From contig JAUHZK010000002.1 of assembly GCA_030425645.1 (NCBI GenBank), positions 256,487-320,486 of the forward strand: a stretch of DNA of 64,000 nt. Direction: 5' to 3'. The translations under genes were made by a program, and so were the position numbers. This document shows, in pieces, positions 3,552 through 36,559 of the stretch (position 1 is the stretch's first letter; each line of letters starts with the position of its first letter). A model generated the notes under the pieces. It was not told the origin of the DNA and did no database searches. It was given only the letters and a program-made list of their open reading frames with translations. The DNA comes from Gammaproteobacteria bacterium. GTDB taxonomy: Bacteria; Pseudomonadota; Gammaproteobacteria; JAPPPA01.

Positions 3552-4964
3552 CTAGTTCGCCAACTTGGTAGACACCAATTCCGCAATCTGACGGTTGATA
3601 CTGGGGATATCTTTAAACACCAAATGCGAGCCTTGGAACCAGCTCACCCGGCCGGTTTGCCAAACGTCCTCTAACTGCTGCACATGCCCCGGTGGGATAA
3701 CCTCGTCAGCTAGGCCAGCAATAATCTGGCGGTTATCCAGATCAACTTTTGAATCACGCGCTAGCGGCGATAGCGGCTTCATTAGCTGTTTGACGCGGTC
3801 GATGGAAACTCCACAGTCGGTAGTGGCATCCAGAATCTGTCGTGGGCCATGAAACCAAAAAATATCCGGTATATCGGTTAGAGGAATGACGGGTATTGCT
3901 AGGTCTAACTCCTCGAGCGTACTCAACAACGCCGTGTTGTAACCGCCCAGCGAATAGCCCAAAGCCCCTATTTTCTCGGCACCCTGGCTGCGTGCCCAGC
4001 TAACTAAGCGGCGAATATCCCACTGCGACTGCCGTACCGCGTTAAAGGTATCCATCGCATCGCCATTCAAATAGCCGTCACCGCTAATCATGCGCAGCTT
4101 GCGGCCGCCGTGCAGAGGCAGTAGTGGCAGAATCAAATTACAACCGAGTTTTTCATGCAAAAACTTAGGTTCAAATAAATTTAAGTCTAGAAACGGCACA
4201 CCCATTTGGTAGCCATGAATACATATCAGCCACGGCCTAGGCTTGTCGTCATCATGACGAAACACCATTGCCCGAGCATCACGATTACTGGTGTAGCTCA
4301 GCCAGCGCTCGCCACCCGGTAACTCAGGGTGTGGTTGATAACCGGAATCAAAACGTAACATTTCAACGTCATGGCCCTGCAGGCGACGGCGTCGAATCTC
4401 TGGGCTCTCAAGTGGGGGCGGCGCTTCAACTAACGCTTCGGGGTTATCGTGCCAGCCATTTTTATCATACACCGACAACGCCGCATCTAGCTCTTCGGCA
4501 ACCCGCTTGATTTCCGACTCACCTTGGATAATTTTGGGCACGCTGACAAAAACACCAACAATAATATTGTCGAGCGCCGCCCTTAGCGCCAACACCGGTG
4601 TCAACTTAGGCTGCGGTAAATCACTAGGCGCATCATGGTTATCTACCGCAATCCAGCCACTTAAGGCCGCTACCGCTACACTCATAAACAACAGCCCGAC
4701 CGTTACCAGAAAGCCCCAGCTCAGTACGCCGAGTATTGAGCCGATAATCCCAAACAAGCCTGCCAAGGACATAAAACGCAGGAAGCGCCGCTCTCCAGGA
4801 ACCACCAGCCAGCCACCGCCACTAATCACCATTAAAATGGCCGCTGGACCGCCACATATCCACGCCCACAGGCTGGCACCATGCAGCTGCGATAGCCAAA
4901 TCAGGCCAGCCAGCACTGCCGGTGTCGCGACAAAACCCCAACGTTTTGCAGTGGCAATACTCAT
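3552..4964 (-). CDS. Membrane-anchored alpha/beta-hydrolase.
   Basis: About 110 aa of N-terminal hydrophobic helices are followed by a hydrolase fold with the nucleophile elbow GYSLGG. The gene is divergent from fadE. Confidence 0.7.
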   Translation of the reverse strand: MSIATAKRWGFVATPAVLAGLIWLSQLHGASLWAWICGGPAAILMVISGGGWLVVPGERRFLRFMSLAGLFGIIGSILGVLSWGFLVTVGLLFMSVAVAALSGWIAVDNHDAPSDLPQPKLTPVLALRAALDNIIVGVFVSVPKIIQGESEIKRVAEELDAALSVYDKNGWHDNPEALVEAPPPLESPEIRRRRLQGHDVEMLRFDSGYQPHPELPGGERWLSYTSNRDARAMVFRHDDDKPRPWLICIHGYQMGVPFLDLNLFEPKFLHEKLGCNLILPLLPLHGGRKLRMISGDGYLNGDAMDTFNAVRQSQWDIRRLVSWARSQGAEKIGALGYSLGGYNTALLSTLEELDLAIPVIPLTDIPDIFWFHGPRQILDATTDCGVSIDRVKQLMKPLSPLARDSKVDLDNRQIIAGLADEVIPPGHVQQLEDVWQTGRVSWFQGSHLVFKDIPSINRQIAELVSTKLAN

Positions 4965-8416: not shown

Positions 8417-8947
8417 ATGTCGACGCAAACGCCTACTGATTGGCAGTCATTAGATTTAGATTGCCTAAATAGTAACGAATACAAATTACTTATCGCGCCA
8501 GCCCTTGAATGCATTACCGATATCGCCGCCAGACGCGGCGATCCCGATTGCTATAACGACATGAGCGCAATGTTGGCCTTATTTACCGTGGTTACCGGGC
8601 TCTCACGGTGTTACCTAGAGGAATGGGGACAGTTAGGCGGCGCCTCAGACGCCGACGCGATTAATAGCGCGCCACTTGGCGCTTGTTTGATGGTCCTCCA
8701 GCAAGCCAAACTAGAACCACTGCAATGCCAAGAAATGTTGCGTGGCCTATCCGGCGCCTGGCGTCACCTAGTGAAAGAAGGCGTAATTGGCGGCGAATTT
8801 CCGCTAATTCAGCAAACATGGCGCAAGCTTGTGGATGAAGATCACACCACTGCAAAGATACACTTGAGAGATGCGGCCATGGCCGTAGTTGCCAGCGTCG
8901 ACCAGTGGGAAGCGCAACGCAACTACAAAGAAGCTACTCTGCAATAA
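8417..8947 (+). CDS. Hypothetical protein with no recognisable family.
   Basis: The 176-aa ORF has coding-like composition. It overlaps the convergent membrane ORF by 14 nt. Confidence 0.45.
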   Translation: MSTQTPTDWQSLDLDCLNSNEYKLLIAPALECITDIAARRGDPDCYNDMSAMLALFTVVTGLSRCYLEEWGQLGGASDADAINSAPLGACLMVLQQAKLEPLQCQEMLRGLSGAWRHLVKEGVIGGEFPLIQQTWRKLVDEDHTTAKIHLRDAAMAVVASVDQWEAQRNYKEATLQ

Positions 8948-14200: not shown

Positions 14201-15474
14201 ACCTTAAAACGGCCAGACGGCGCCATCTGTTGCAACACGCTCGCCATCTCGCTTGGAAATGGCAAGGCTTCAGCTTGGTCGAATACGTCACCCCAAAGCA
14301 GACTGTCGAGCTGCCCATGAAATCGCAGCTTGCGACCTTCGTCTTCAGTGCCAATCGCCGAGTGCATGGTCAGGCCTTCAACTTCCACCACCTCACCAGC
14401 AACCGTTAGCTGGGCTTTTTCACTCGACACGGTCCACTTGCGCCCTAGCTGCGCCAGATTCTTGAGTGCATCAACTTCCTCACTTGAAGACTCATGGCTC
14501 TCCCAAGACAAGTCGCCCACAAAGGATTCAACAAGATGGCGATCACGTTGCGCGCTACTTTCGTTATCTAAACTCAGTTGCAAGGCCTGCAACGAGATAT
14601 GGCTAGTTACCTTGGTGGTCTTTTGCCGGTCCCACTGCAGGTTAATATCACCGCGTTCCAACACGCCAGCGCGTATATCCAGCGGCAAGGCCGCAAGCAA
14701 CGGCTGCACCCACGGCGAATGCAATTGAAAGCCCTGCAGCCGAGCAAACATAGAGCCACGCATATTAACCATGTCGGCCATGCTGCCTTCGGCATCTAGC
14801 ACCAGCTCAACGTTTTCACCAATTGAATTCGGCGGCTTACCGGATAGTTCAATATGGTATTCACCGCCGCCACTCCGGAACGCCAGATCAAACCAAGCAC
14901 TTTCTGTATCCAAACCAGTGTCGCCAGCCGGCACCCACACAACCTCAGTGCGGCCGAGAGAAATGCGCCCACGTGCCGCTAAGAAATCTAATAACGGCCC
15001 TAGGAAATCACTTTGGTTGCCGGCACTGCCATCAAAGCCCCGCAACCGAAGTCGACCGTTATCGGTTTGCTCGACAACCAAGCGCAAACCTTGGGCATCA
15101 ACACTAGCTGGACGTAAGGGCTGCTTAGAAAACAGCTGAAAGATATGTGTCCCGACCGCCAACTGGCGCAGGCCAACCAGCTCATCGCTATCGACTGGTG
15201 AACGGATGGACACATCCTCGAAAATCAATCGCGGCCCCCAACCAGACCATTCGGCCTGCATACTGCCAATCACCAGTGGCTTGCCAATCGCATCGCTGGC
15301 CATGGCCTCGATATCGCGTTGCAACTCTGGCAGCTCTGGTAGTAATAGCCGAAACAGACTGAAACTGACCGCCAACAAAATCAGCAGAACCGCAAAAAGC
15401 CCAAGCAAGCTGCGCCGTATGGCGTAAAAAACGTTATTAGGTAATGCCACGCGGCTAGACCAAGACCACATCGT
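11254..15474 (-). CDS. yhdP: YhdP/AsmA-family large inner-membrane-anchored envelope protein (TIGR02099-like).
   Basis: The product is about 1400 aa with an N-terminal TM segment and a Gly/Arg-rich C-terminal tail. Its position after rng matches E. coli maf-rng-yhdP-tldD. Confidence 0.85.
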   Translation of the reverse strand, partial: TMWSWSSRVALPNNVFYAIRRSLLGLFAVLLILLAVSFSLFRLLLPELPELQRDIEAMASDAIGKPLVIGSMQAEWSGWGPRLIFEDVSIRSPVDSDELVGLRQLAVGTHIFQLFSKQPLRPASVDAQGLRLVVEQTDNGRLRLRGFDGSAGNQSDFLGPLLDFLAARGRISLGRTEVVWVPAGDTGLDTESAWFDLAFRSGGGEYHIELSGKPPNSIGENVELVLDAEGSMADMVNMRGSMFARLQGFQLHSPWVQPLLAALPLDIRAGVLERGDINLQWDRQKTTKVTSHISLQALQLSLDNESSAQRDRHLVESFVGDLSWESHESSSEEVDALKNLAQLGRKWTVSSEKAQLTVAGEVVEVEGLTMHSAIGTEDEGRKLRFHGQLDSLLWGDVFDQAEALPFPSEMASVLQQMAPSGRFKVEQFDVSHSADGGLKTQAKGAFSELGWGTGKVAGAADENKGWPGFENLAGRFTVDNDVVDVELDSSSLIIDWPWLYEGRRSVDTVAGQLSIAMRRTDDNSGRIDGLAINAPSLNLVKEGATAEVVVAVNAQLGGPKVAGDIKLQGKVRNGTVPLVKRFIPAFTPATAQSWLQGALLAGRVDAEVGIDGPLQGFPYEANEGSFRVDADVSGGAIEFAEDWPALSNVTAALLFRNIGLMARVAHAETEGVVPTRLNVNIPNLRLTDVNIVTEATAPVSKLLGYVRQSPLKEPVAPLLKGLSASGEADLSLQLHVPVSNIGGLKANGELVLEDTKLRSSEFLALDNINGRVGFTEARVLANDIRGQFHGFDAAAQLDLSLVGGDMLITAETQLDLDEQPQHKAFMGRFMPDWLLNILSGSSALQVDLSGRDGAAPGERIRVTSSLEGVAVNGPSGIEKRPEWQAPFELLVDRSAGSGMAVTANARGLGGAALWLADEDDGELRRAEFAVGNINAVLPTEDGIGVVVDLPKGDLDYLLSWFAEQQPEAAAAPARNMLLPDFLDYLSLRSDEFRAFGINWRALNANIRRQENAAQLTMKSADGAGTVLVPDSVVSAAQVADLGEAARALQKRRLAAQIEVDFDYLYLPDLVRTPEAEAVGPPAPVAASTVDPRELPVVRARIRDGRYMGVRLGQIDVVTEPGVSGLVMRRLTSRGGELALDASGRWDVYEHGHHSELEVKLSSGDWDAVMNGIDLPDVLGAKGANVDVKLQWPGPMTQFDAERASGGFSVDFEEGQIYQVDPGLGRILGLFSFYTLPKRLLLDFSDIAKSGLTFDRITGDFAVSDGNAWTDNLEIKARGADAMIVGRAGLLEQDYDQRITVRPQIGGGTAVVGALVSGLGVGALLLLGNELFGQPFDELGVLRFHLTGSWDEPLINGEPIPEKPKVESRPATAIQFGRPSAVVTEDAPAAASEASAKARRRGGARRR

Positions 15475-16969
15475 GCTGGTCAGGCGGGTACTGGGCCTCT
15501 GCCTGCAAACGAATAGGATGACCAATGGCTGCTTCCAAATCAGCTAACGCCTTAGCCTCGTCGCTTAGCATCAAATCAACCACCGCAGGTGCAGCAATGA
15601 TCAGCATCTCGCGCGGCTCAAACTGCCTTGCGGAGCGTGAAATCTCACGGAAAATTTCGTAACACACCGTTTCAACCGTTTGTACGGTGCCTAAACCACC
15701 ACAAGTACCGCAAGGTTCCATCAGCAAGCGCTGCAAGCTTTCACGCGTTCGCTTACGCGTCATTTCTACTAGCCCCAGCGGGGAAAAATCGTAGACCTGC
15801 GTGCGGGCGTAATCCTTCTGCAAGTACTTCTCTAAAGATCGCAGCACCTGGCGCTTATGATCCGCATCCTGCATATCAATAAAATCGATAATGATGATGC
15901 CGCCGAGGTTACGCAGCCTAAGCTGCCGCGCGATGGCTTGTGCTGCCTCTAGGTTGGTCTTAAAAATAGTTTCTTCGAGTGTTCGATGACCAACGAAACC
16001 ACCGGTATTGACGTCGACCGTGGTCATGGCTTCGGTCTGATCAAAAATCAGGTGACCACCTGACTTCAGCTCCAAGCGCCGGTCTAGCGCGCGGCCGATG
16101 TCTTCTTCCACGCCGTAAATATCAAACAACGGCCGATCACCAGCGTAATGCACCAGCCGGTCTTTCATATGCGGGAAGAAACCTTCGGCAAACTGTTTGA
16201 CCTGCTGAAACGCCTCCGGTGAATCAATCCGCACGGTATCGACTTCTTCTGACAGTAGATCTCTAAGGATTCGAAGCACCATGGGCAAGTCACCATGGAC
16301 TAAAGAAGGCACCGCTGACGAGGTTGCAGCGCCGGCTATTTTTTCCCACAACCGACGCAGAAAAAGCATGTCCGCCCAAATAGCTTCCTGGCTAACGCCC
16401 TCGCCGGCCGTTCTAACAATAAAACCGCCATCTTCTTCATTCTTGAGATTGGCGCGAACCGCTGCCCTGAGGCGCTCCCGCTCCTCTTCACACTCAATCT
16501 TGCTAGAAACACCTAGATGTTTCTCACCGGGCATATAAACCAAATAACGCGACGGCAGGCTTATTTGCGTAGTCAGACGCGCGCCTTTACTGCCAAGCGG
16601 GTCTTTTAGCACCTGCACCAGCACCGTCTGACCTTCTGCTAACAACTGCGTGATATTGGCCCCTGCGGTATTGCGATGCGCTAGCGGCCCGCCACCGTCA
16701 CTGTCGACCTCATTAGCGAGCGCTGAAATATCTTCCGATGAACGCATGCCGATATCGCCGACATGCAAAAACGCCGTGCGCTCGAGACCGATCTCGACAA
16801 AAGCTGCCTGCATGCCAGGCAAGACTCGCGAGACTTTACCCTGGTAAATATTACCGACCAGACCGTGGCGATTAGTTCTCTCAATAAAAAGCTCCTGCAA
16901 AACACCGTGGTCAACAACCGCCACTCGCGTTTCTTGAGGGCTCACATTGATGAGGATTTCTTCGCTCAA
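15455..16969 (-). CDS. rng: Ribonuclease G.
   Basis: It has an RNase E/G catalytic domain (S1 followed by DNase I-like and Zn-link CGTCGG). The 504-aa size fits RNase G. Confidence 0.9.
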   Translation of the reverse strand: MSEEILINVSPQETRVAVVDHGVLQELFIERTNRHGLVGNIYQGKVSRVLPGMQAAFVEIGLERTAFLHVGDIGMRSSEDISALANEVDSDGGGPLAHRNTAGANITQLLAEGQTVLVQVLKDPLGSKGARLTTQISLPSRYLVYMPGEKHLGVSSKIECEEERERLRAAVRANLKNEEDGGFIVRTAGEGVSQEAIWADMLFLRRLWEKIAGAATSSAVPSLVHGDLPMVLRILRDLLSEEVDTVRIDSPEAFQQVKQFAEGFFPHMKDRLVHYAGDRPLFDIYGVEEDIGRALDRRLELKSGGHLIFDQTEAMTTVDVNTGGFVGHRTLEETIFKTNLEAAQAIARQLRLRNLGGIIIIDFIDMQDADHKRQVLRSLEKYLQKDYARTQVYDFSPLGLVEMTRKRTRESLQRLLMEPCGTCGGLGTVQTVETVCYEIFREISRSARQFEPREMLIIAAPAVVDLMLSDEAKALADLEAAIGHPIRLQAEAQYPPDQHDVVLV

Positions 16970-17574
16970 AGGGTCTCTACTCCAAAACGGCTCAATAACT
17001 GCGAGGTTTCGAAAATCGGCAAACCCACGACAGCACTATAGGATCCGGATATTTTACGCACAAATACAGCAGCAAGCCCTTGAATTGCATATGAACCAGC
17101 CTTGTCTTGAGGCTCTCCCGTCTGCCAGTAGCGGCGCATGGCCTCGGGCGCAACGTGGTCGAAGCTCACACGGGTTGCCACCACAGCAGATTCGACCCGC
17201 TGACCCTGCACACAAACCACCGCAGTTAATACCTCGTGCTCACGCCCTGACAGCAGCGACAGCATGCGCACGGAATCGTCAAAATCGACGGGTTTACCCA
17301 AGGCCTCACCATCCACCACCACCGCCGTATCGGAACCCAATACGGGTAATGACATGGCTTCGCCCTGCTGTTGCCAGCCGGCAATGGCTTTATCTGTGGC
17401 GACCCTTAAGACGTAGTCCTCTGGCGTCTCGTCTGCCGCTTGTTGTTCTGGCACGGAAATCGATGCGACCTCGAAACGCAAACCCAGTCCTGCCAACATC
17501 TCCCGCCTACGCGGCGAACGCGATGCGAGGACAAATTGCGCTAGCTTATTGGCGTGTTCGCCAGACATATCCAC
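16966..17574 (-). CDS. maf: Maf-like nucleoside triphosphate pyrophosphatase.
   Basis: The Maf family N-terminus (LASRSPRRREML) is present. Its stop overlaps the rng start (ATGA). Confidence 0.85.
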   Translation of the reverse strand: MDMSGEHANKLAQFVLASRSPRRREMLAGLGLRFEVASISVPEQQAADETPEDYVLRVATDKAIAGWQQQGEAMSLPVLGSDTAVVVDGEALGKPVDFDDSVRMLSLLSGREHEVLTAVVCVQGQRVESAVVATRVSFDHVAPEAMRRYWQTGEPQDKAGSYAIQGLAAVFVRKISGSYSAVVGLPIFETSQLLSRFGVETL

Positions 17575-17665: not shown

Positions 17666-18148
17666 CTATTCCCGATGATAAGGGTGGTTATGCAGAATGC
17701 TGTGAGCACGGTAGAGCTGTTCGGCAACCAATACCCGCACCATTGCATGCGGCAGCGTCAGCGGTGACAAACACCATTGCTGATCCGCCATTTGTCGCAG
17801 CTCTTCATCTAAACCGTCGGGTCCACCCACTAACAAAGCAACATCTTTGCCGCTGTGCCGCCAATGATCTAACTGCTGCGAAAGCTGTTTTGTGGTCCAA
17901 GGTTTACCGCGCTCATCCAGCGCCACCACGATCGCGCCTTTAGGAATCGCGGCTTTTATATCAGCGGTTTCTTTGCGCACTGCGGCTACTGCGGCGTCAC
18001 GTCCAACGTCTTGCTTTTTGCGCGGCCCTGGCGGTAGCTCTTTAAGCTGTAAAGCCGTTTGACTAGGCATTCGCTTGGCGTAGGTTTCATAGCCATCAAC
18101 AACCCATTTAGGTGGTTTTTGACCGACGGCTATTAGGTGAATTTTCAT
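17666..18148 (-). CDS. rlmH: 23S rRNA (pseudouridine1915-N3)-methyltransferase RlmH.
   Basis: The 160-aa SPOUT-type product follows the MKIxLIAVG pattern (YbeA). Confidence 0.9.
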   Translation of the reverse strand: MKIHLIAVGQKPPKWVVDGYETYAKRMPSQTALQLKELPPGPRKKQDVGRDAAVAAVRKETADIKAAIPKGAIVVALDERGKPWTTKQLSQQLDHWRHSGKDVALLVGGPDGLDEELRQMADQQWCLSPLTLPHAMVRVLVAEQLYRAHSILHNHPYHRE

Positions 18149-18253
18149 GCGTGAATTGTACCCTCGTTACGGCAGCTAACCTAAGCGCTTACTCCGCTTA
18201 ACCGGTAACCCAAGACGACCCGAACCAGCCGCCTTTTAAGATACTGAGTCCCT

Positions 18254-19159
18254 TTACGCTGGCGCTTCGTCAGATTGGTACACAGTTACCTGACCGTAAC
18301 CTTGCGCCCGACTCTGGGCCAACGCCACATCACAAGCAGACAGCGTATCCGAGGCCGACCAACGGCCATTATTGAATTGCACAATACCCATGCAAACACT
18401 GACCGAGACGGCTTCGCCGCTGGGCGCTTTAAGCCAACGCTGACTCAACTTCTGCTGTACTCGCAGGGCAACATTCATTGCGTCTTTGGCTTCCGTCGCC
18501 GGCAGAATGAGCAGAAACCGATCGGCCCCAAGACGCCCCACGTAATCAAGTTCTCGACAAGTACTTCGCAACATCATGGCGATCTCAGCGAGCACCTCGT
18601 CGCCAAACGGCTCACCGTGACTGGCATTAATTCTCGACAGACCATCGACGTCGACCACCATTGCGGAGAAACGCATCTGCCCTCGCCGCCATCGCTGAAT
18701 AGCCTTGTCTAGTTCTTCTAGTAAGTAGTGCCGGTTATGTAGCCGTGTTAGTCGGTCTAGCTTAGCCACGTCATACAAGCGCCGACGAGAACGTCCAAGA
18801 CGCTGTCTCAGCGCCATCGACATTAGGCTCGGCAAACCAATAACCAACGCACTCATTAATAGATACTGCAGGGCCTGCTCGGCACCTAAACGTGGCGGCT
18901 GCAGAATATAGCTTGCAACACACAAGGCGCTAACCAGTAAGAACGCCTGCAGGCTACGACGTTTGCCCGTGGCGAGCGCTGCAGAAAAAATTATCGGTAA
19001 ATAGAAGACACCACGAATGCCGTCGCTATTCGCGTGGGTATCAAACCAAAAGCCCCAAACAGCCGCCGCCGCAGCGAGTAGCGCCAAGGCGACGGTGAGT
19101 AGCCGCCGCGGCGCTAGTGGATGCAGACGCTGGTTGACCGAAGCTGGCGCCATTGCCAA
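18254..19159 (-). CDS. Membrane GGDEF-domain protein with a degenerate active site (GADRF) and an intact I-site (RELD). It is probably not an active diguanylate cyclase.
   Basis: The N-terminus has about 4 TM helices, and the C-terminus is a GGDEF domain (DVDGLSRINASHGEPFGDEVL). The GGDEF position reads GADRF (nt 18515-18529, verified by reverse-complement translation), with RxxD five residues upstream. Confidence 0.8.
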   Translation of the reverse strand: MAMAPASVNQRLHPLAPRRLLTVALALLAAAAAVWGFWFDTHANSDGIRGVFYLPIIFSAALATGKRRSLQAFLLVSALCVASYILQPPRLGAEQALQYLLMSALVIGLPSLMSMALRQRLGRSRRRLYDVAKLDRLTRLHNRHYLLEELDKAIQRWRRGQMRFSAMVVDVDGLSRINASHGEPFGDEVLAEIAMMLRSTCRELDYVGRLGADRFLLILPATEAKDAMNVALRVQQKLSQRWLKAPSGEAVSVSVCMGIVQFNNGRWSASDTLSACDVALAQSRAQGYGQVTVYQSDEAPA

Positions 19160-19171
19160 AACCGAACTAGC

Positions 19172-19534
19172 CTATTCTTCTTCCGCGGCTGGAATGCCTG
19201 ACCAGATTTTTTCCAGCTCATAGAACTCGCGGGTTTCTTGCTGCATTACATGCACCACAATATCGCCGAGGTCGATCAAAACCCATTCGCCATTGGCTTG
19301 CCCTTCAACCCCTAGCGGTTGCAAACCCGCCTCTTTAGCTGACATCACAACGCTATTGGCGGCGGCTTTGGCATGACGGTTTGAGGTGCCGCTAGCCACA
19401 ACGACCTTGGACATCACCGAACTAATCTCAGCCGTGTCTAGGCAGACAATCTCTTTGGCTTTTAAATCTTCTAGCGCGTTAATTACCAAGCTCTCTAGCT
19501 CTTCTAAGCTTAGGTCAGCTGCTTTTGCAGTCAT
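19172..19534 (-). CDS. rsfS: Ribosome silencing factor RsfS.
   Basis: The 120-aa product belongs to the RsfS/Iojap family, and it follows nadD as in Pseudomonas and E. coli. Confidence 0.9.
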   Translation of the reverse strand: MTAKAADLSLEELESLVINALEDLKAKEIVCLDTAEISSVMSKVVVASGTSNRHAKAAANSVVMSAKEAGLQPLGVEGQANGEWVLIDLGDIVVHVMQQETREFYELEKIWSGIPAAEEE

Positions 19535-35599: not shown

Positions 35600-36559
35600 A
35601 TGTTAATCCAAGACTTATTTTTCTCCGCCTGTGTTTATTTATCTTTATGTGACGGCTCCGAGCCGATTAGCCCAGAGTCAGTAGATCACGGCCAGCTATA
35701 CAACCTAACAAGCCGTGAAGTCGCCGAGACTAGCGGTATGGCGGCTAGCCGGCTACAGCCGGGAGAGCTTTGGTTACATAACGACAGTGGCAACGACGCC
35801 AAGCTGTATCGCTTTGATCCGAGCAACGATAAATTGACGAAGACAGTCAGCTTGAATGGCGCCGAAAGCGACGACTGGGAGGATATGGCCAGCTTCCAAT
35901 GGGATGGGAAAAATTGGTTATTAGTGGCCGACGTTGGCGACAATTTCAGCAACAAACAGCATGTGCAGCTTTACTTATTGCCGGAGCCCAACGGCACCGC
36001 CGAAGAGCAGCAAGTAGACGTTGTAACCACCTATACGCTGCGTTTTGAAGATGGCCCACGCGACTGCGAAGCCATTGCTGTCGACCCCGACAGGCAACGC
36101 CTATGGCTGCTTAGCAAACGCGACAAGCCTGGGCGTTTATACTCAGCACCGCTAGATCAAGGTAGCGACATCTTCGCTACCTTTGCCGGCGAAGCAATCA
36201 CAATCCCAGAACCCACCGCCGACGATATTGAACAAGACCCGTGGTATGGCGGCCGCCGCTGGCAAGCCTCAGCAATGGACATCAGCCCCGATGGTCAACA
36301 GCTGTTGATTACCACGTACAAAGACAGCTACATCTACCAGCTACAAGCAAGCGACCAAGGCAATTGGGGCATTGCGATTTCACGGCCACCGCTTGTAGTG
36401 GATACACCGCAATTAATGCAAACCGAAGCCGGTGCCTTTAGCCACGATGGCGAGCACGTGTGGGTGGCCTCAGAGCAGCTGCCAACTCAGCTGTTCCAGA
36501 CCCAGCTGACTAAAACAACATCAACAGTTTCTCGGGATACTCTCAGTAAGCCTCGATAA
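35600..36559 (+). CDS. Hypothetical protein, possibly a beta-propeller of the YjiK/SdiA-regulated type.
   Basis: The 319-aa product has repeated aromatic/Asp-rich segments. Its N-terminus is weakly hydrophobic. The family call is of low certainty. Confidence 0.45.
   Translation: MLIQDLFFSACVYLSLCDGSEPISPESVDHGQLYNLTSREVAETSGMAASRLQPGELWLHNDSGNDAKLYRFDPSNDKLTKTVSLNGAESDDWEDMASFQWDGKNWLLVADVGDNFSNKQHVQLYLLPEPNGTAEEQQVDVVTTYTLRFEDGPRDCEAIAVDPDRQRLWLLSKRDKPGRLYSAPLDQGSDIFATFAGEAITIPEPTADDIEQDPWYGGRRWQASAMDISPDGQQLLITTYKDSYIYQLQASDQGNWGIAISRPPLVVDTPQLMQTEAGAFSHDGEHVWVASEQLPTQLFQTQLTKTTSTVSRDTLSKPR

What the first reader, a model, noticed from the sequence alone, without database searches (positions are those of the whole stretch)
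18254..19159. A membrane GGDEF protein with degenerate A-site (GADRF) and intact I-site (RELD) is inserted into the conserved proA-nadD-rsfS-rlmH operon
The signature GG(D/E)EF is replaced by G-A-D-R-F (nt 18515-18529, checked by translation). This loses the second glycine and the metal-coordinating glutamate, so cyclase activity is unlikely. The RxxD inhibitory or c-di-GMP-binding site five residues upstream is intact (R-E-L-D). That combination is typical of c-di-GMP receptors and effectors such as PelD- or PopA-like proteins. The gene sits between rsfS and rlmH, two ribosome-associated genes that are normally adjacent. This raises the possibility that a c-di-GMP-sensing membrane protein is co-transcribed with ribosome silencing and maturation factors.
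Basis: partly seen in the sequence, partly recalled or inferred. Interest (0 to 1): 0.6.

Follow-up and report, generated by a model that had tools for sequence, protein, structure and literature searches.

The report
Inactive membrane GGDEF protein inserted between rsfS and rlmH
A small group of uncultured gammaproteobacteria carries a membrane protein whose cyclic-di-GMP-making domain has lost its catalytic residues but kept its cyclic-di-GMP-binding residues; it is probably a c-di-GMP sensor of a well-known type that landed between two ribosome genes, and nothing shows that it works with them.

Summary
ORF 18254-19159 (minus strand, 301 aa) is a four-helix membrane protein with a GGDEF domain (Pfam E 1.9e-32). 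It has GADRF in place of GG(D/E)EF and RELD exactly five residues upstream.

The motif is not a sequencing error. All six other lineages found (58-71% identical to the window protein) carry GADRF and R(E/D)LD. The gene is under strong purifying selection (dN/dS 0.025-0.095).

Several further catalytic residues are replaced (PleD K332, D336, H340, R446). All four I-site arginines/aspartate are invariant (PleD R313, R359, D362, R390). The best reading is a catalytically dead I-site c-di-GMP receptor. Its architecture is that of B. subtilis YdaK and Listeria PssE.

It is a true clade-specific insertion. The sister lineage and more distant relatives have rsfS directly next to rlmH.

A functional tie to ribosome silencing is not supported:
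- Four relatives have a canonical intrinsic terminator between the gene and rlmH, and a fifth has a weaker copy.
- The spacing between rsfS and the gene varies from 12 to 135 nt.
- An unrelated metal/RiPP operon occupies the same junction in another genome.

In this window alone the terminator has decayed and the gene abuts rsfS, so co-transcription here is plausible. This is a new member of a known kind, of modest interest.

The parts
18254..19159 (-). GGDEF* gene: 301 aa from TTG at 19159; the likely start is the ATG at 19153 (299 aa)
   Evidence: ORF list; Pfam GGDEF E 1.9e-32; six other lineages carry it at the same locus (the short L001 contig does not show rsfS); dN/dS 0.025-0.095
18806..19096 (-). 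Family-specific four-helix membrane module (residues about 22-118). Predicted periplasmic loops carry the invariant motifs GFWFDTHxNxxGxR and QPPxL.
   Evidence: Hydropathy and charge distribution; AF2 helices 14-40, 51-60, 64-84, 91-131; conservation; no homologues outside the family among 1.84 billion representatives
18299..18766 (-). GGDEF domain (residues 132-287), joined to TM4 by one continuous helix
   Evidence: Pfam; alignment to PleD; AF2 pLDDT above 90; Foldseek hits to SiaD, PleD, DosC and DgcB
18515..18529 (-). Degenerate A-site GADRF (residues 211-215; PleD G368-F372)
   Evidence: Translation; PleD alignment; invariant in all 7 family sequences; 112 of the 114 best non-family hits (P0007-P0120) have GG[DE]E[FLI]
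18545..18556 (-). Primary I-site RELD (R202 and D205, equivalent to PleD R359 and D362)
18683..18694 (-). RWRR (residues 156-159). R156 aligns with the PleD secondary I-site R313. The position is analogous to the RxxR at 157-160 of YdaK.
   Evidence: Alignment offset; invariant in the family; YdaK data from PMC5422440
18461..18463 (-). R233, equivalent to the PleD I-site residue R390
19172..19534 (-). rsfS. Its stop codon lies 12 nt (TTG start) or 18 nt (ATG start) before GGDEF*.
   Evidence: Pfam RsfS and TIGR00090; sequence
17666..18148 (-). rlmH, 105 nt downstream of the GGDEF* stop
   Evidence: NCBIfam RlmH equivalog, 214.7 bits
18213..18234 (-). Decayed homologue of the terminator hairpin that follows the gene in relatives. 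It has 8 pairs, 3 of them G-U, and no T-tract.
   Evidence: Intergenic comparison; folding z = -1.46; the terminator scan reports nothing here but does report terminators in L007, L016, L019 and L009
18155..18160 (-). TACAAT box 6 nt before the rlmH ATG. It is conserved in all insert-bearing lineages and in the insert-free sister L021. It may be a -10 element for rlmH.
   Evidence: Inference only; no transcript data.

Best explanation
The gene encodes a homodimer-type inner-membrane protein with topology N-in, four TM helices, C-in. Its cytoplasmic GGDEF domain can no longer make c-di-GMP but retains the complete allosteric c-di-GMP pocket. That pocket comprises the primary I-site R202/D205/R233 and the secondary-site R156. 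The protein most likely acts as an I-site c-di-GMP receptor. Intercalated c-di-GMP would bind, and possibly cross-link, the two GGDEF domains. The resulting change would pass through the continuous TM4-stalk helix to the membrane module. The invariant periplasmic loops of that module would contact an unidentified partner. The gene arose from a canonical I-site-bearing cyclase. It was inserted with its own terminator into the spacer between rsfS and rlmH in the common ancestor of a narrow clade of uncultured gammaproteobacteria. Its place among ribosome genes is a permissive insertion point, not evidence of shared function. Shown here: domain identity, motif substitutions, family-wide conservation, purifying selection, clade-specific insertion, and terminators in relatives. 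Inferred: loss of cyclase activity (strong), c-di-GMP binding (moderate), and inside-out signalling with a membrane partner (speculative).
For: Domain and motif.

Catalytic residues replaced and fixed in the family:
- K332 to S (one lineage has A)
- D336 to A or G
- H340 to E
- G369 to A
- E371 to R
- R446 to Y
PleD K332 contacts the beta-phosphate (bioRxiv 10.1101/2025.08.22.671821). An E-to-A change at the fourth motif position is the standard inactivating mutation (PMC3974145).

I-site residues R156, R202, D205 and R233 are invariant. Of 112 related canonical GGDEF proteins, 107 carry RxxD, so the ancestor was an I-site cyclase.

Purifying selection: dN/dS is 0.025-0.095 for close pairs. 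For distant pairs pS is about 0.8 (saturated) against pN 0.19-0.28.

Architectural precedent: YdaK has 4 TMH plus a degenerate GGDEF (SDERI), with RxxD at 202-205 and RxxR at 157-160, and it binds c-di-GMP (PMC5422440). PssE is a membrane-anchored degenerate GGDEF whose I-site binds 2 c-di-GMP per protein (PMC4125290).

Insertion: relatives with RlmH 79-92% identical whose loci were read carry the gene. L021 (73%), L022 (62%) and L024 (63%) do not.

Insulation from rlmH: terminators in L007, L016, L019 and L009.

The junction is permissive: L026 carries a different cargo there.
Against: No binding or activity data exist.

I-site invariance alone is not significant. In the family, 62% of GGDEF-domain columns are invariant, so four chosen positions would all be invariant with P of about 0.15.

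The guanine-binding residues (N178 and D187, equivalent to PleD N335 and D344) and the metal ligands (D170 and D213, equivalent to PleD D327 and E370) are also invariant. A-site nucleotide binding therefore cannot be excluded.

No partner gene of the polysaccharide-synthase kind is adjacent, unlike YdaK, PssE and PelD.

No other c-di-GMP gene occurs in the 64 kb window. It is unknown whether the organism makes c-di-GMP.

One population (L009-L012) carries a frameshift in the gene, so it can be dispensable.
Confidence: 0.55

Rival explanations
1. One reading: the protein is a c-di-GMP-sensing membrane partner of the ribosome silencing and maturation module. It would be co-transcribed with rsfS and rlmH and would couple the second messenger to 50S silencing or 23S methylation.
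For: In the window, L007 and L013 the gene starts 12-22 nt after the rsfS stop. In the window the downstream terminator has lost its T-tract. The position is kept across lineages whose synonymous sites are saturated.
Against: Canonical terminators separate the gene from rlmH in four lineages, with a weaker one in a fifth. The other subclade has a spacer of 126-135 nt after rsfS. The TACAAT box before rlmH predates the insertion. An unrelated operon is inserted at the same junction in L026. The whole leuS-to-yhdP cluster is syntenic, so retained position says little. Only two papers hold the terms c-di-GMP, RsfS and ribosome, each with one mention of c-di-GMP and neither read here.
Confidence: 0.08
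2. The remodelled A-site, not the I-site, is the working site. The domain would bind a guanine nucleotide (GTP, (p)ppGpp or c-di-GMP) as a sensor, or would retain a weak or altered nucleotidyl-transferase activity.
For: Guanine-pocket residues N178 and D187 and acidic residues D170 and D213 are invariant. (p)ppGpp binds the PleD active site through D344, N335, K332, D327 and E370 (PDB 9g85 and 9g86 appear). The substituted residues (A212, R214, E183, Y288) are themselves fixed, which suggests a re-shaped site rather than a decayed one.
Against: The phosphate-contacting K332 and R446 equivalents are lost. An Arg replaces the fourth-position Glu that mutagenesis studies target to kill activity. 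In the paper read here, the natural variants that stay active (AGDEF, SGDEF) differ only at the first motif position.
Confidence: 0.14
3. The protein is a nucleotide-independent scaffold or regulator. The dead GGDEF domain would pair with an active cyclase or another membrane protein (decoy or adaptor), and the membrane module would sense a periplasmic cue.
For: The most conserved parts of the membrane module are the predicted periplasmic loops. Degenerate GGDEF domains with c-di-GMP-independent roles are documented, for example CdpA and YybT (PMC3974145).
Against: This does not explain why all four I-site residues stay intact. No candidate partner is encoded nearby.
Confidence: 0.15
4. The gene is a decaying remnant of a cyclase with no current function.
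For: The catalytic motif is degenerate. One population has a frameshift.
Against: dN/dS is 0.025-0.095, and the reading frame is intact in six lineages despite saturated synonymous divergence. The substituted residues are themselves invariant. The frameshifted copy is otherwise intact, so that lesion is recent.
Confidence: 0.03

Closest known systems
YdaK (Bacillus subtilis), a degenerate GGDEF-TM c-di-GMP receptor
   Same: About 280-300 aa. Four N-terminal TM helices followed by one degenerate GGDEF domain. RxxD lies five residues before the motif (coincidentally also R202-D205), and an upstream arginine motif sits at 157-160 against RWRR at 156-159 here (PMC5422440).
   Different: The YdaK motif is SDERI. 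YdaK lies in the ydaJ-N exopolysaccharide operon and activates that synthase. Here no polysaccharide genes are adjacent. The TM module here has no detectable homologue outside the family. Direct sequence comparison with YdaK was not run.
PssE (Listeria monocytogenes Lmo0531)
   Same: A membrane-anchored, enzymatically inactive GGDEF protein with RxxD five residues upstream. It is a demonstrated I-site receptor binding two c-di-GMP per protein (PMC4125290).
   Different: It is the last gene of the pssA-E exopolysaccharide cluster. Its output partner is known there and unknown here.
PelD (Pseudomonas aeruginosa)
   Same: An inner-membrane protein with a degenerate GGDEF domain that binds c-di-GMP at RxxD (cited in PMC3974145).
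   Different: From general knowledge, PelD has a GAF domain between its TM region and a much more diverged GGDEF domain, and lies in the pel operon. Here there is no GAF domain and no pel genes. PelD is not among the PDB sequence hits at E <= 1e-10.
PopA (Caulobacter crescentus)
   Same: Degenerate A-site with an intact I-site, working as a c-di-GMP effector (cited).
   Different: From general knowledge, PopA is a soluble protein with two receiver domains that acts as a protease adaptor. The protein here is membrane-anchored with no receiver domain.
PleD, SiaD and other active I-site diguanylate cyclases
   Same: These are the closest relatives by sequence and fold: PleD E 2e-21; SiaD, PleD, DosC and DgcB are the top Foldseek hits; SiaD is the best NCBIfam model at 116.9 bits. 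Primary and secondary I-site residues are shared.
   Different: All of them carry GG(D/E)EF and the phosphate-binding K332 and R446, which are lost here. No NCBIfam equivalog model reaches its cutoff (for example 116.9 against 290 for SiaD).

Membership tests
GGDEF domain superfamily (PF00990 / TIGR00254) | Significant match to the domain profile over its full length | tested here: met
   PF00990 at 112.7 bits (cutoff 23.8), profile positions 1-158 of 161. TIGR00254 at 114.8 bits (cutoff 37.4).
Active diguanylate cyclase | GG(D/E)EF signature with Gly at position 2 and Glu at position 4 | tested here: not met
   GADRF, invariant in 7 family sequences
Active diguanylate cyclase | Phosphate-contacting residues equivalent to PleD K332 and R446 | tested here: not met
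   S175 (A in one lineage) and Y288
Active diguanylate cyclase | Guanine-binding N335 and D344, and metal ligand D327 | tested here: met
   N178, D187 and D170 are invariant
Active diguanylate cyclase | c-di-GMP synthesis from GTP | not testable with these tools
   Requires an enzyme assay
I-site c-di-GMP receptors with a degenerate GGDEF domain (functional class: PelD, PopA, PssE, YdaK, CdgA) | Degenerate A-site | tested here: met
I-site c-di-GMP receptors with a degenerate GGDEF domain | RxxD exactly five residues upstream of the signature | tested here: met
   R202-E-L-D205, then YVGRL, then G211. R and D are invariant.
I-site c-di-GMP receptors with a degenerate GGDEF domain | Additional I-site arginines (PleD R390; secondary-site R313) | tested here: met
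   R233 and R156 are invariant
I-site c-di-GMP receptors with a degenerate GGDEF domain | Demonstrated c-di-GMP binding that depends on the I-site | not testable with these tools
   Requires ITC, DRaCALA or equilibrium dialysis
YdaK/PssE-type polysaccharide co-activators | Encoded within a polysaccharide synthase operon | tested here: not met
   The neighbours are rsfS, rlmH, nadD, proA, maf, rng and yhdP in every lineage
PelD family | GAF domain between the TM region and the GGDEF domain; pel operon context | tested here: not met
   Only GGDEF is detected by Pfam. TM4 runs straight into the GGDEF domain. No pel genes are present.
rsfS-rlmH transcription unit | No terminator or promoter between the gene and its neighbours, i.e. 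co-transcription | tested here: inconclusive
   Window: 12-18 nt after rsfS and no canonical terminator before rlmH. Relatives: canonical terminators before rlmH. No transcript data.

The most novel reading that the evidence does not exclude
The degenerate GGDEF protein is a membrane-anchored guanine-nucleotide sensor, binding c-di-GMP at the I-site or (p)ppGpp/GTP at the remodelled A-site. It would have been recruited into the nadD-rsfS-rlmH unit and would tune ribosome silencing or late 50S maturation. That would be a direct link between c-di-GMP-type signalling and ribosome hibernation factors. The tight rsfS-gene junction in the window subclade and the decay of the downstream terminator in the window would then be steps towards operon integration.
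Probability: 0.06. Interest if true: 0.7.

Novelty: new member of a known kind. Interest (0 to 1): 0.3.

Why it matters
If the I-site receptor reading is right, this adds a small family with a previously unseen four-helix membrane module to the list of degenerate-GGDEF c-di-GMP effectors. It would be one whose output is not an adjacent polysaccharide synthase. The invariant periplasmic loops (GFWFDTHxNxxGxR and QPPxL) make it a candidate for inside-out signalling, which is rare for GGDEF-only proteins.

The more general lesson concerns gene context. The rsfS|rlmH junction has been used at least twice for unrelated cargo, so a position between two ribosome genes is not evidence of a ribosome-related role.

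The family is confined to a few uncultured lineages, and about a quarter of all GGDEF domains are degenerate (PMC3974145). The finding is therefore of specialist interest only, unless a link to RsfS or RlmH is shown experimentally.

Tried and rejected
1. Sequencing error in the motif: rejected. GADRF is identical in all seven family sequences (the window and six independent lineages).
2. Riboswitch or known RNA upstream or downstream of the gene: none found. The window had no hits at gathering thresholds. Five related loci at E <= 1 gave only a chance sub-threshold STnc40 hit on the L016 terminator.
3. Homologues of the membrane module: a profile search of 1.84 billion representatives found only the family itself plus spurious repeat proteins.
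4. Additional members or other genomic contexts: two metagenome-contig scans, one with a protein pattern and one with a degenerate DNA pattern, found nothing. The genome-contig scan found one MAG (L001) plus unrelated canonical GGDEF proteins.
5. Recent horizontal transfer: rejected by composition. GC is 0.557 and GC3 0.563, within the range of the neighbours.
6. Own sigma-70 promoter: the consensus scans found none for the gene on its coding strand in the window or in L007, L016, L019 and L009. Only a -10-like TATAAT/TATACT/TATATT box is seen by eye in subclade B.
7. Other c-di-GMP genes in the window: none among the 49 larger ORFs scanned.
8. Literature on the motif or on a link between c-di-GMP and RsfS: 'GADRF' gave no relevant paper, and only two papers, neither read, hold c-di-GMP, RsfS and ribosome together.
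9. Programmed frameshift in L009-L012: considered. There is no slippery or stop-codon context, so it is treated as a recent lesion.
10. Statistical weight of I-site conservation: computed and found weak on its own, P about 0.15.

Full report
**Observation**

The minus-strand ORF 18254..19159 encodes 301 aa from a TTG. An ATG two codons downstream (19153) is the more likely start. Pfam places a full-length GGDEF domain at residues 132-287 (E 1.9e-32, 112.7 bits), and TIGR00254 agrees.

R-E-L-D occupies residues 202-205, with five residues (YVGRL) between it and the motif.

The neighbours on the same strand are lptE, holA, proA, nadD, rsfS (19172-19534), the GGDEF gene, rlmH (17666-18148), maf, rng and a yhdP-type gene. 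Each was identified by Pfam or NCBIfam.

**Is the motif real and is the gene alive?**

A search of 5.8 billion proteins found only a handful of true relatives, P0001-P0006. A genome scan added one MAG, L001, labelled 'Gammaproteobacteria bacterium'. Together with loci recovered through RlmH, there are six lineages besides the window. They are 58-71% identical to the window protein.

Every one has GADRF and R(E/D)LD. Among the 114 best non-family hits, 112 carry GG[DE]E[FLI], and 107 of those have RxxD five residues upstream. The family therefore derives from an ordinary cyclase that carried an I-site.

- Nei-Gojobori estimates give dN/dS of 0.025-0.095 for the pairs whose synonymous sites are not saturated.
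- For distant pairs pS is about 0.8 against pN of 0.19-0.28.
- The GGDEF part is more constrained than the membrane part.
- The substituted residues are themselves fixed.

This is a functional, re-purposed protein. It is neither a sequencing error nor a decaying gene.

One population (L009-L012, four sequencing runs) has a single extra A that splits the gene into 167-aa and 146-aa ORFs. Removing that base restores a fully intact, motif-bearing protein. The lesion is recent and shows the gene can be lost.

**Anatomy**

The alignment to PleD (window residue + 157 = PleD residue) gives the following map.

| PleD residue | Role | Here |
|---|---|---|
| D327 | metal ligand | D170, retained |
| N335 | guanine binding | N178, retained |
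| D344 | guanine binding | D187, retained |
| R366 | precedes the motif | R209, retained |
| E370 | metal ligand | D213, conservative |
| K332 | phosphate contact | S175, replaced |
| D336 | – | A179 (G in some lineages), replaced |
| H340 | – | E183, replaced |
| G369 | motif position 2 | A212, replaced |
| E371 | motif position 4 | R214, replaced |
| R446 | phosphate contact (general knowledge) | Y288, replaced |
| K442 | phosphate contact (general knowledge) | R284, conservative |

All of these states are invariant or nearly so in the family. K332 contacts the beta-phosphate, and D327 and E370 hold the Mg ion in PleD structures (bioRxiv 10.1101/2025.08.22.671821). The fourth-position Glu is the residue routinely mutated to inactivate cyclases (PMC3974145). 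In the paper read here, the natural variants that stay active (AGDEF, SGDEF) differ only at the first motif position. Loss of cyclase activity is therefore a strong inference.

All four residues of the allosteric pocket are present and invariant: R202 and D205 (PleD R359 and D362), R233 (R390) and R156 (the secondary-site R313). This invariance is not statistically decisive by itself. Some 62% of the domain's columns are invariant in the family, which gives P of about 0.15 for four chosen positions.

The N-terminal 120 residues form four hydrophobic segments. Arg/Lys-rich segments lie at the N-terminus, between TM2 and TM3, and after TM4, which implies N-in/C-in topology. AlphaFold2 (pLDDT 86.5) predicts helices 14-40, 51-60, 64-84 and 91-131. 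The last helix runs without a break from TM4 into the GGDEF domain.

The best-conserved parts of this module are the two predicted periplasmic loops, GFWFDTHxNxxGxR and QPPxL. A profile of the module searched against 1.84 billion representative proteins found nothing but the family itself and spurious repeat proteins. The membrane module is therefore family-specific.

**Insertion and transcription**

RlmH homologues show a clear identity gap.

- Lineages at 79-92% identity whose loci were read carry the GGDEF gene between rsfS and rlmH.
- The next lineage, L021 (73%, sharing a clade-specific 5-aa RlmH insertion), has rsfS followed after 61 nt by rlmH with nothing between.
- L022 (62%) and L024 (63%) have 23-nt and 17-nt gaps.
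- E. coli K-12 has 3 nt.

The gene is thus a single, clade-specific insertion. Its composition is fully ameliorated.

The insertion behaves as an independent cassette. L007, L016, L019 and L009 have a canonical intrinsic terminator, a GGCGCC-type stem followed by T6, directly after the gene. L013 has a weaker copy. A (T)TACAAT box sits 5-6 nt before the rlmH ATG in all lineages. It is also present in the insert-free L021, so it predates the insertion and may be a -10 element for rlmH.

The gap from rsfS to the gene is 126-135 nt in L016, L019, L009 and L001. It is only 12-22 nt in the window, L007 and L013. In the window the terminator homologue has three G-U pairs and no T-tract, and the scan does not call it.

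In this window specifically, co-transcription of rsfS, the gene and rlmH is plausible. In most relatives rlmH is insulated from the gene.

In L026 (RlmH 61%), seven unrelated genes occupy the same junction. They are small ORFs including a BufA1-like peptide, MbnB/TglH, HvfC and a CDF transporter. The rsfS|rlmH boundary is a permissive insertion point. Position there is weak evidence of function.

**Mechanism**

The best-supported model (confidence about 0.55 as a whole) is an I-site c-di-GMP receptor. Inactivity and insertion are close to certain. c-di-GMP binding is moderately likely.

In this model the two cytoplasmic domains of a dimer bind intercalated c-di-GMP through R202/D205/R233, and possibly R156 of the partner subunit. 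The change passes along the TM4-stalk helix to the membrane module and its conserved outer loops. The output partner is unknown.

The closest architectural precedents are B. subtilis YdaK and Listeria PssE.

- YdaK has four TM helices plus a degenerate GGDEF (SDERI), with RxxD at 202-205 and RxxR at 157-160. It binds c-di-GMP, and I-site mutants lose function (PMC5422440).
- PssE is a membrane-anchored degenerate GGDEF that binds two c-di-GMP per protein (PMC4125290).
- Both sit in polysaccharide operons, which this gene does not.

Rivals:
- An A-site guanine-nucleotide sensor, or an enzyme with altered activity (0.14). The guanine pocket and two acidic ligands are invariant, and (p)ppGpp is now known to bind GGDEF active sites.
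- A nucleotide-independent scaffold or decoy (0.15).
- A true functional partner of RsfS/RlmH (0.08).
- A decaying remnant (0.03).

**What is missing**

No other c-di-GMP gene lies in the 64 kb window. No known RNA element flanks the gene. No paper in the library connects the GADRF motif to GGDEF proteins. Only two hold c-di-GMP, RsfS and ribosome together, and neither was read. Two metagenome scans found no further members.

**Verdict**

That inference is strengthened here by family-wide conservation and by additional catalytic and I-site residues. The 'insertion' is real. The proposed coupling to ribosome silencing and maturation rests on position alone. The terminators in relatives, the variable spacing and a second unrelated cargo at the same junction all undercut it. 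This is a new, narrowly distributed member of the known class of degenerate-GGDEF I-site effectors, with a novel membrane module. Interest is 0.3.

Noticed in passing
L026 1720-6471 (CP037918.1, 2.7 Mb genome): A different seven-gene cargo sits between rsfS and rlmH. It comprises four small ORFs (one BufA1-like), an MbnB/TglH/ChrH-family protein, an HvfC_N protein and a cation-efflux (CDF) transporter that overlaps the rlmH start. This is a bufferin-type RiPP/metal operon. The rsfS|rlmH junction has been used at least twice for insertions.
   Followed up: partly
window 18155-18160 (-); also L007, L013, L016, L019, L009 and L021 154-160: A (T)TACAAT box lies 5-6 nt upstream of the rlmH ATG. It is conserved in all insert-bearing lineages and in the insert-free sister L021, and absent from L022 and L024. 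The spacing fits a -10 element that would give a leaderless or near-leaderless rlmH mRNA. No good Shine-Dalgarno sequence lies between the box and the ATG.
   Followed up: partly
L009 8420-8427 (also L010, L011, L012): A single inserted A (TTCTTAATTGG against TTCTT-GTTGG) splits the GGDEF gene into 167-aa and 146-aa ORFs. It is seen in contigs from four sequencing runs of one project. The rest of the gene is intact with all motifs, so the lesion is a recent, population-wide frameshift.
   Followed up: yes
L019 4849-4977, L016 4851-4976, L009 7866-8000, L001 about 690-816: In one subclade the 126-135 nt spacer between rsfS and the GGDEF gene holds a TATAAT/TATACT/TATATT box. It also holds a small hairpin about 10 nt before the ATG whose stem differs between lineages (CTGC-N4-GCAG against GCGCC-ACTA-GGCGC). 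This may be the gene's own promoter and a 5' UTR structure. There is no Rfam match.
   Followed up: partly
window 17666-18148 (-) and alignment A5: RlmH of this clade, including the insert-free L021, carries a 5-residue insertion (around D-A-A-V-A-A, residues about 51-56) relative to the next relatives and to L026. This marks the clade as a distinct deep lineage: RlmH identity drops from 73% to 65% or less outside it.
   Followed up: no
window 15455-17574 (-): rlmH is followed by maf, rng and a 1423-aa yhdP-type gene instead of the mrdA-mrdB-rlpA genes that follow it in E. coli. The arrangement is conserved in all related loci. The TTG start listed for the rng ORF (16969) overlaps the maf stop by 4 nt, and the TTG start listed for the yhdP ORF (15525) overlaps the end of rng.
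   Followed up: no
L009 751-1352: A VapB/PIN toxin-antitoxin pair lies just upstream of leuS in the L009/L010 lineage. It is absent from the corresponding position in the window.
   Followed up: no
window 3552-4964 (-), 8417-8947 (+), 35600-36559 (+): Three sizeable ORFs (470, 176 and 319 aa) have no Pfam family at E <= 1e-5. They were not examined further.
   Followed up: no
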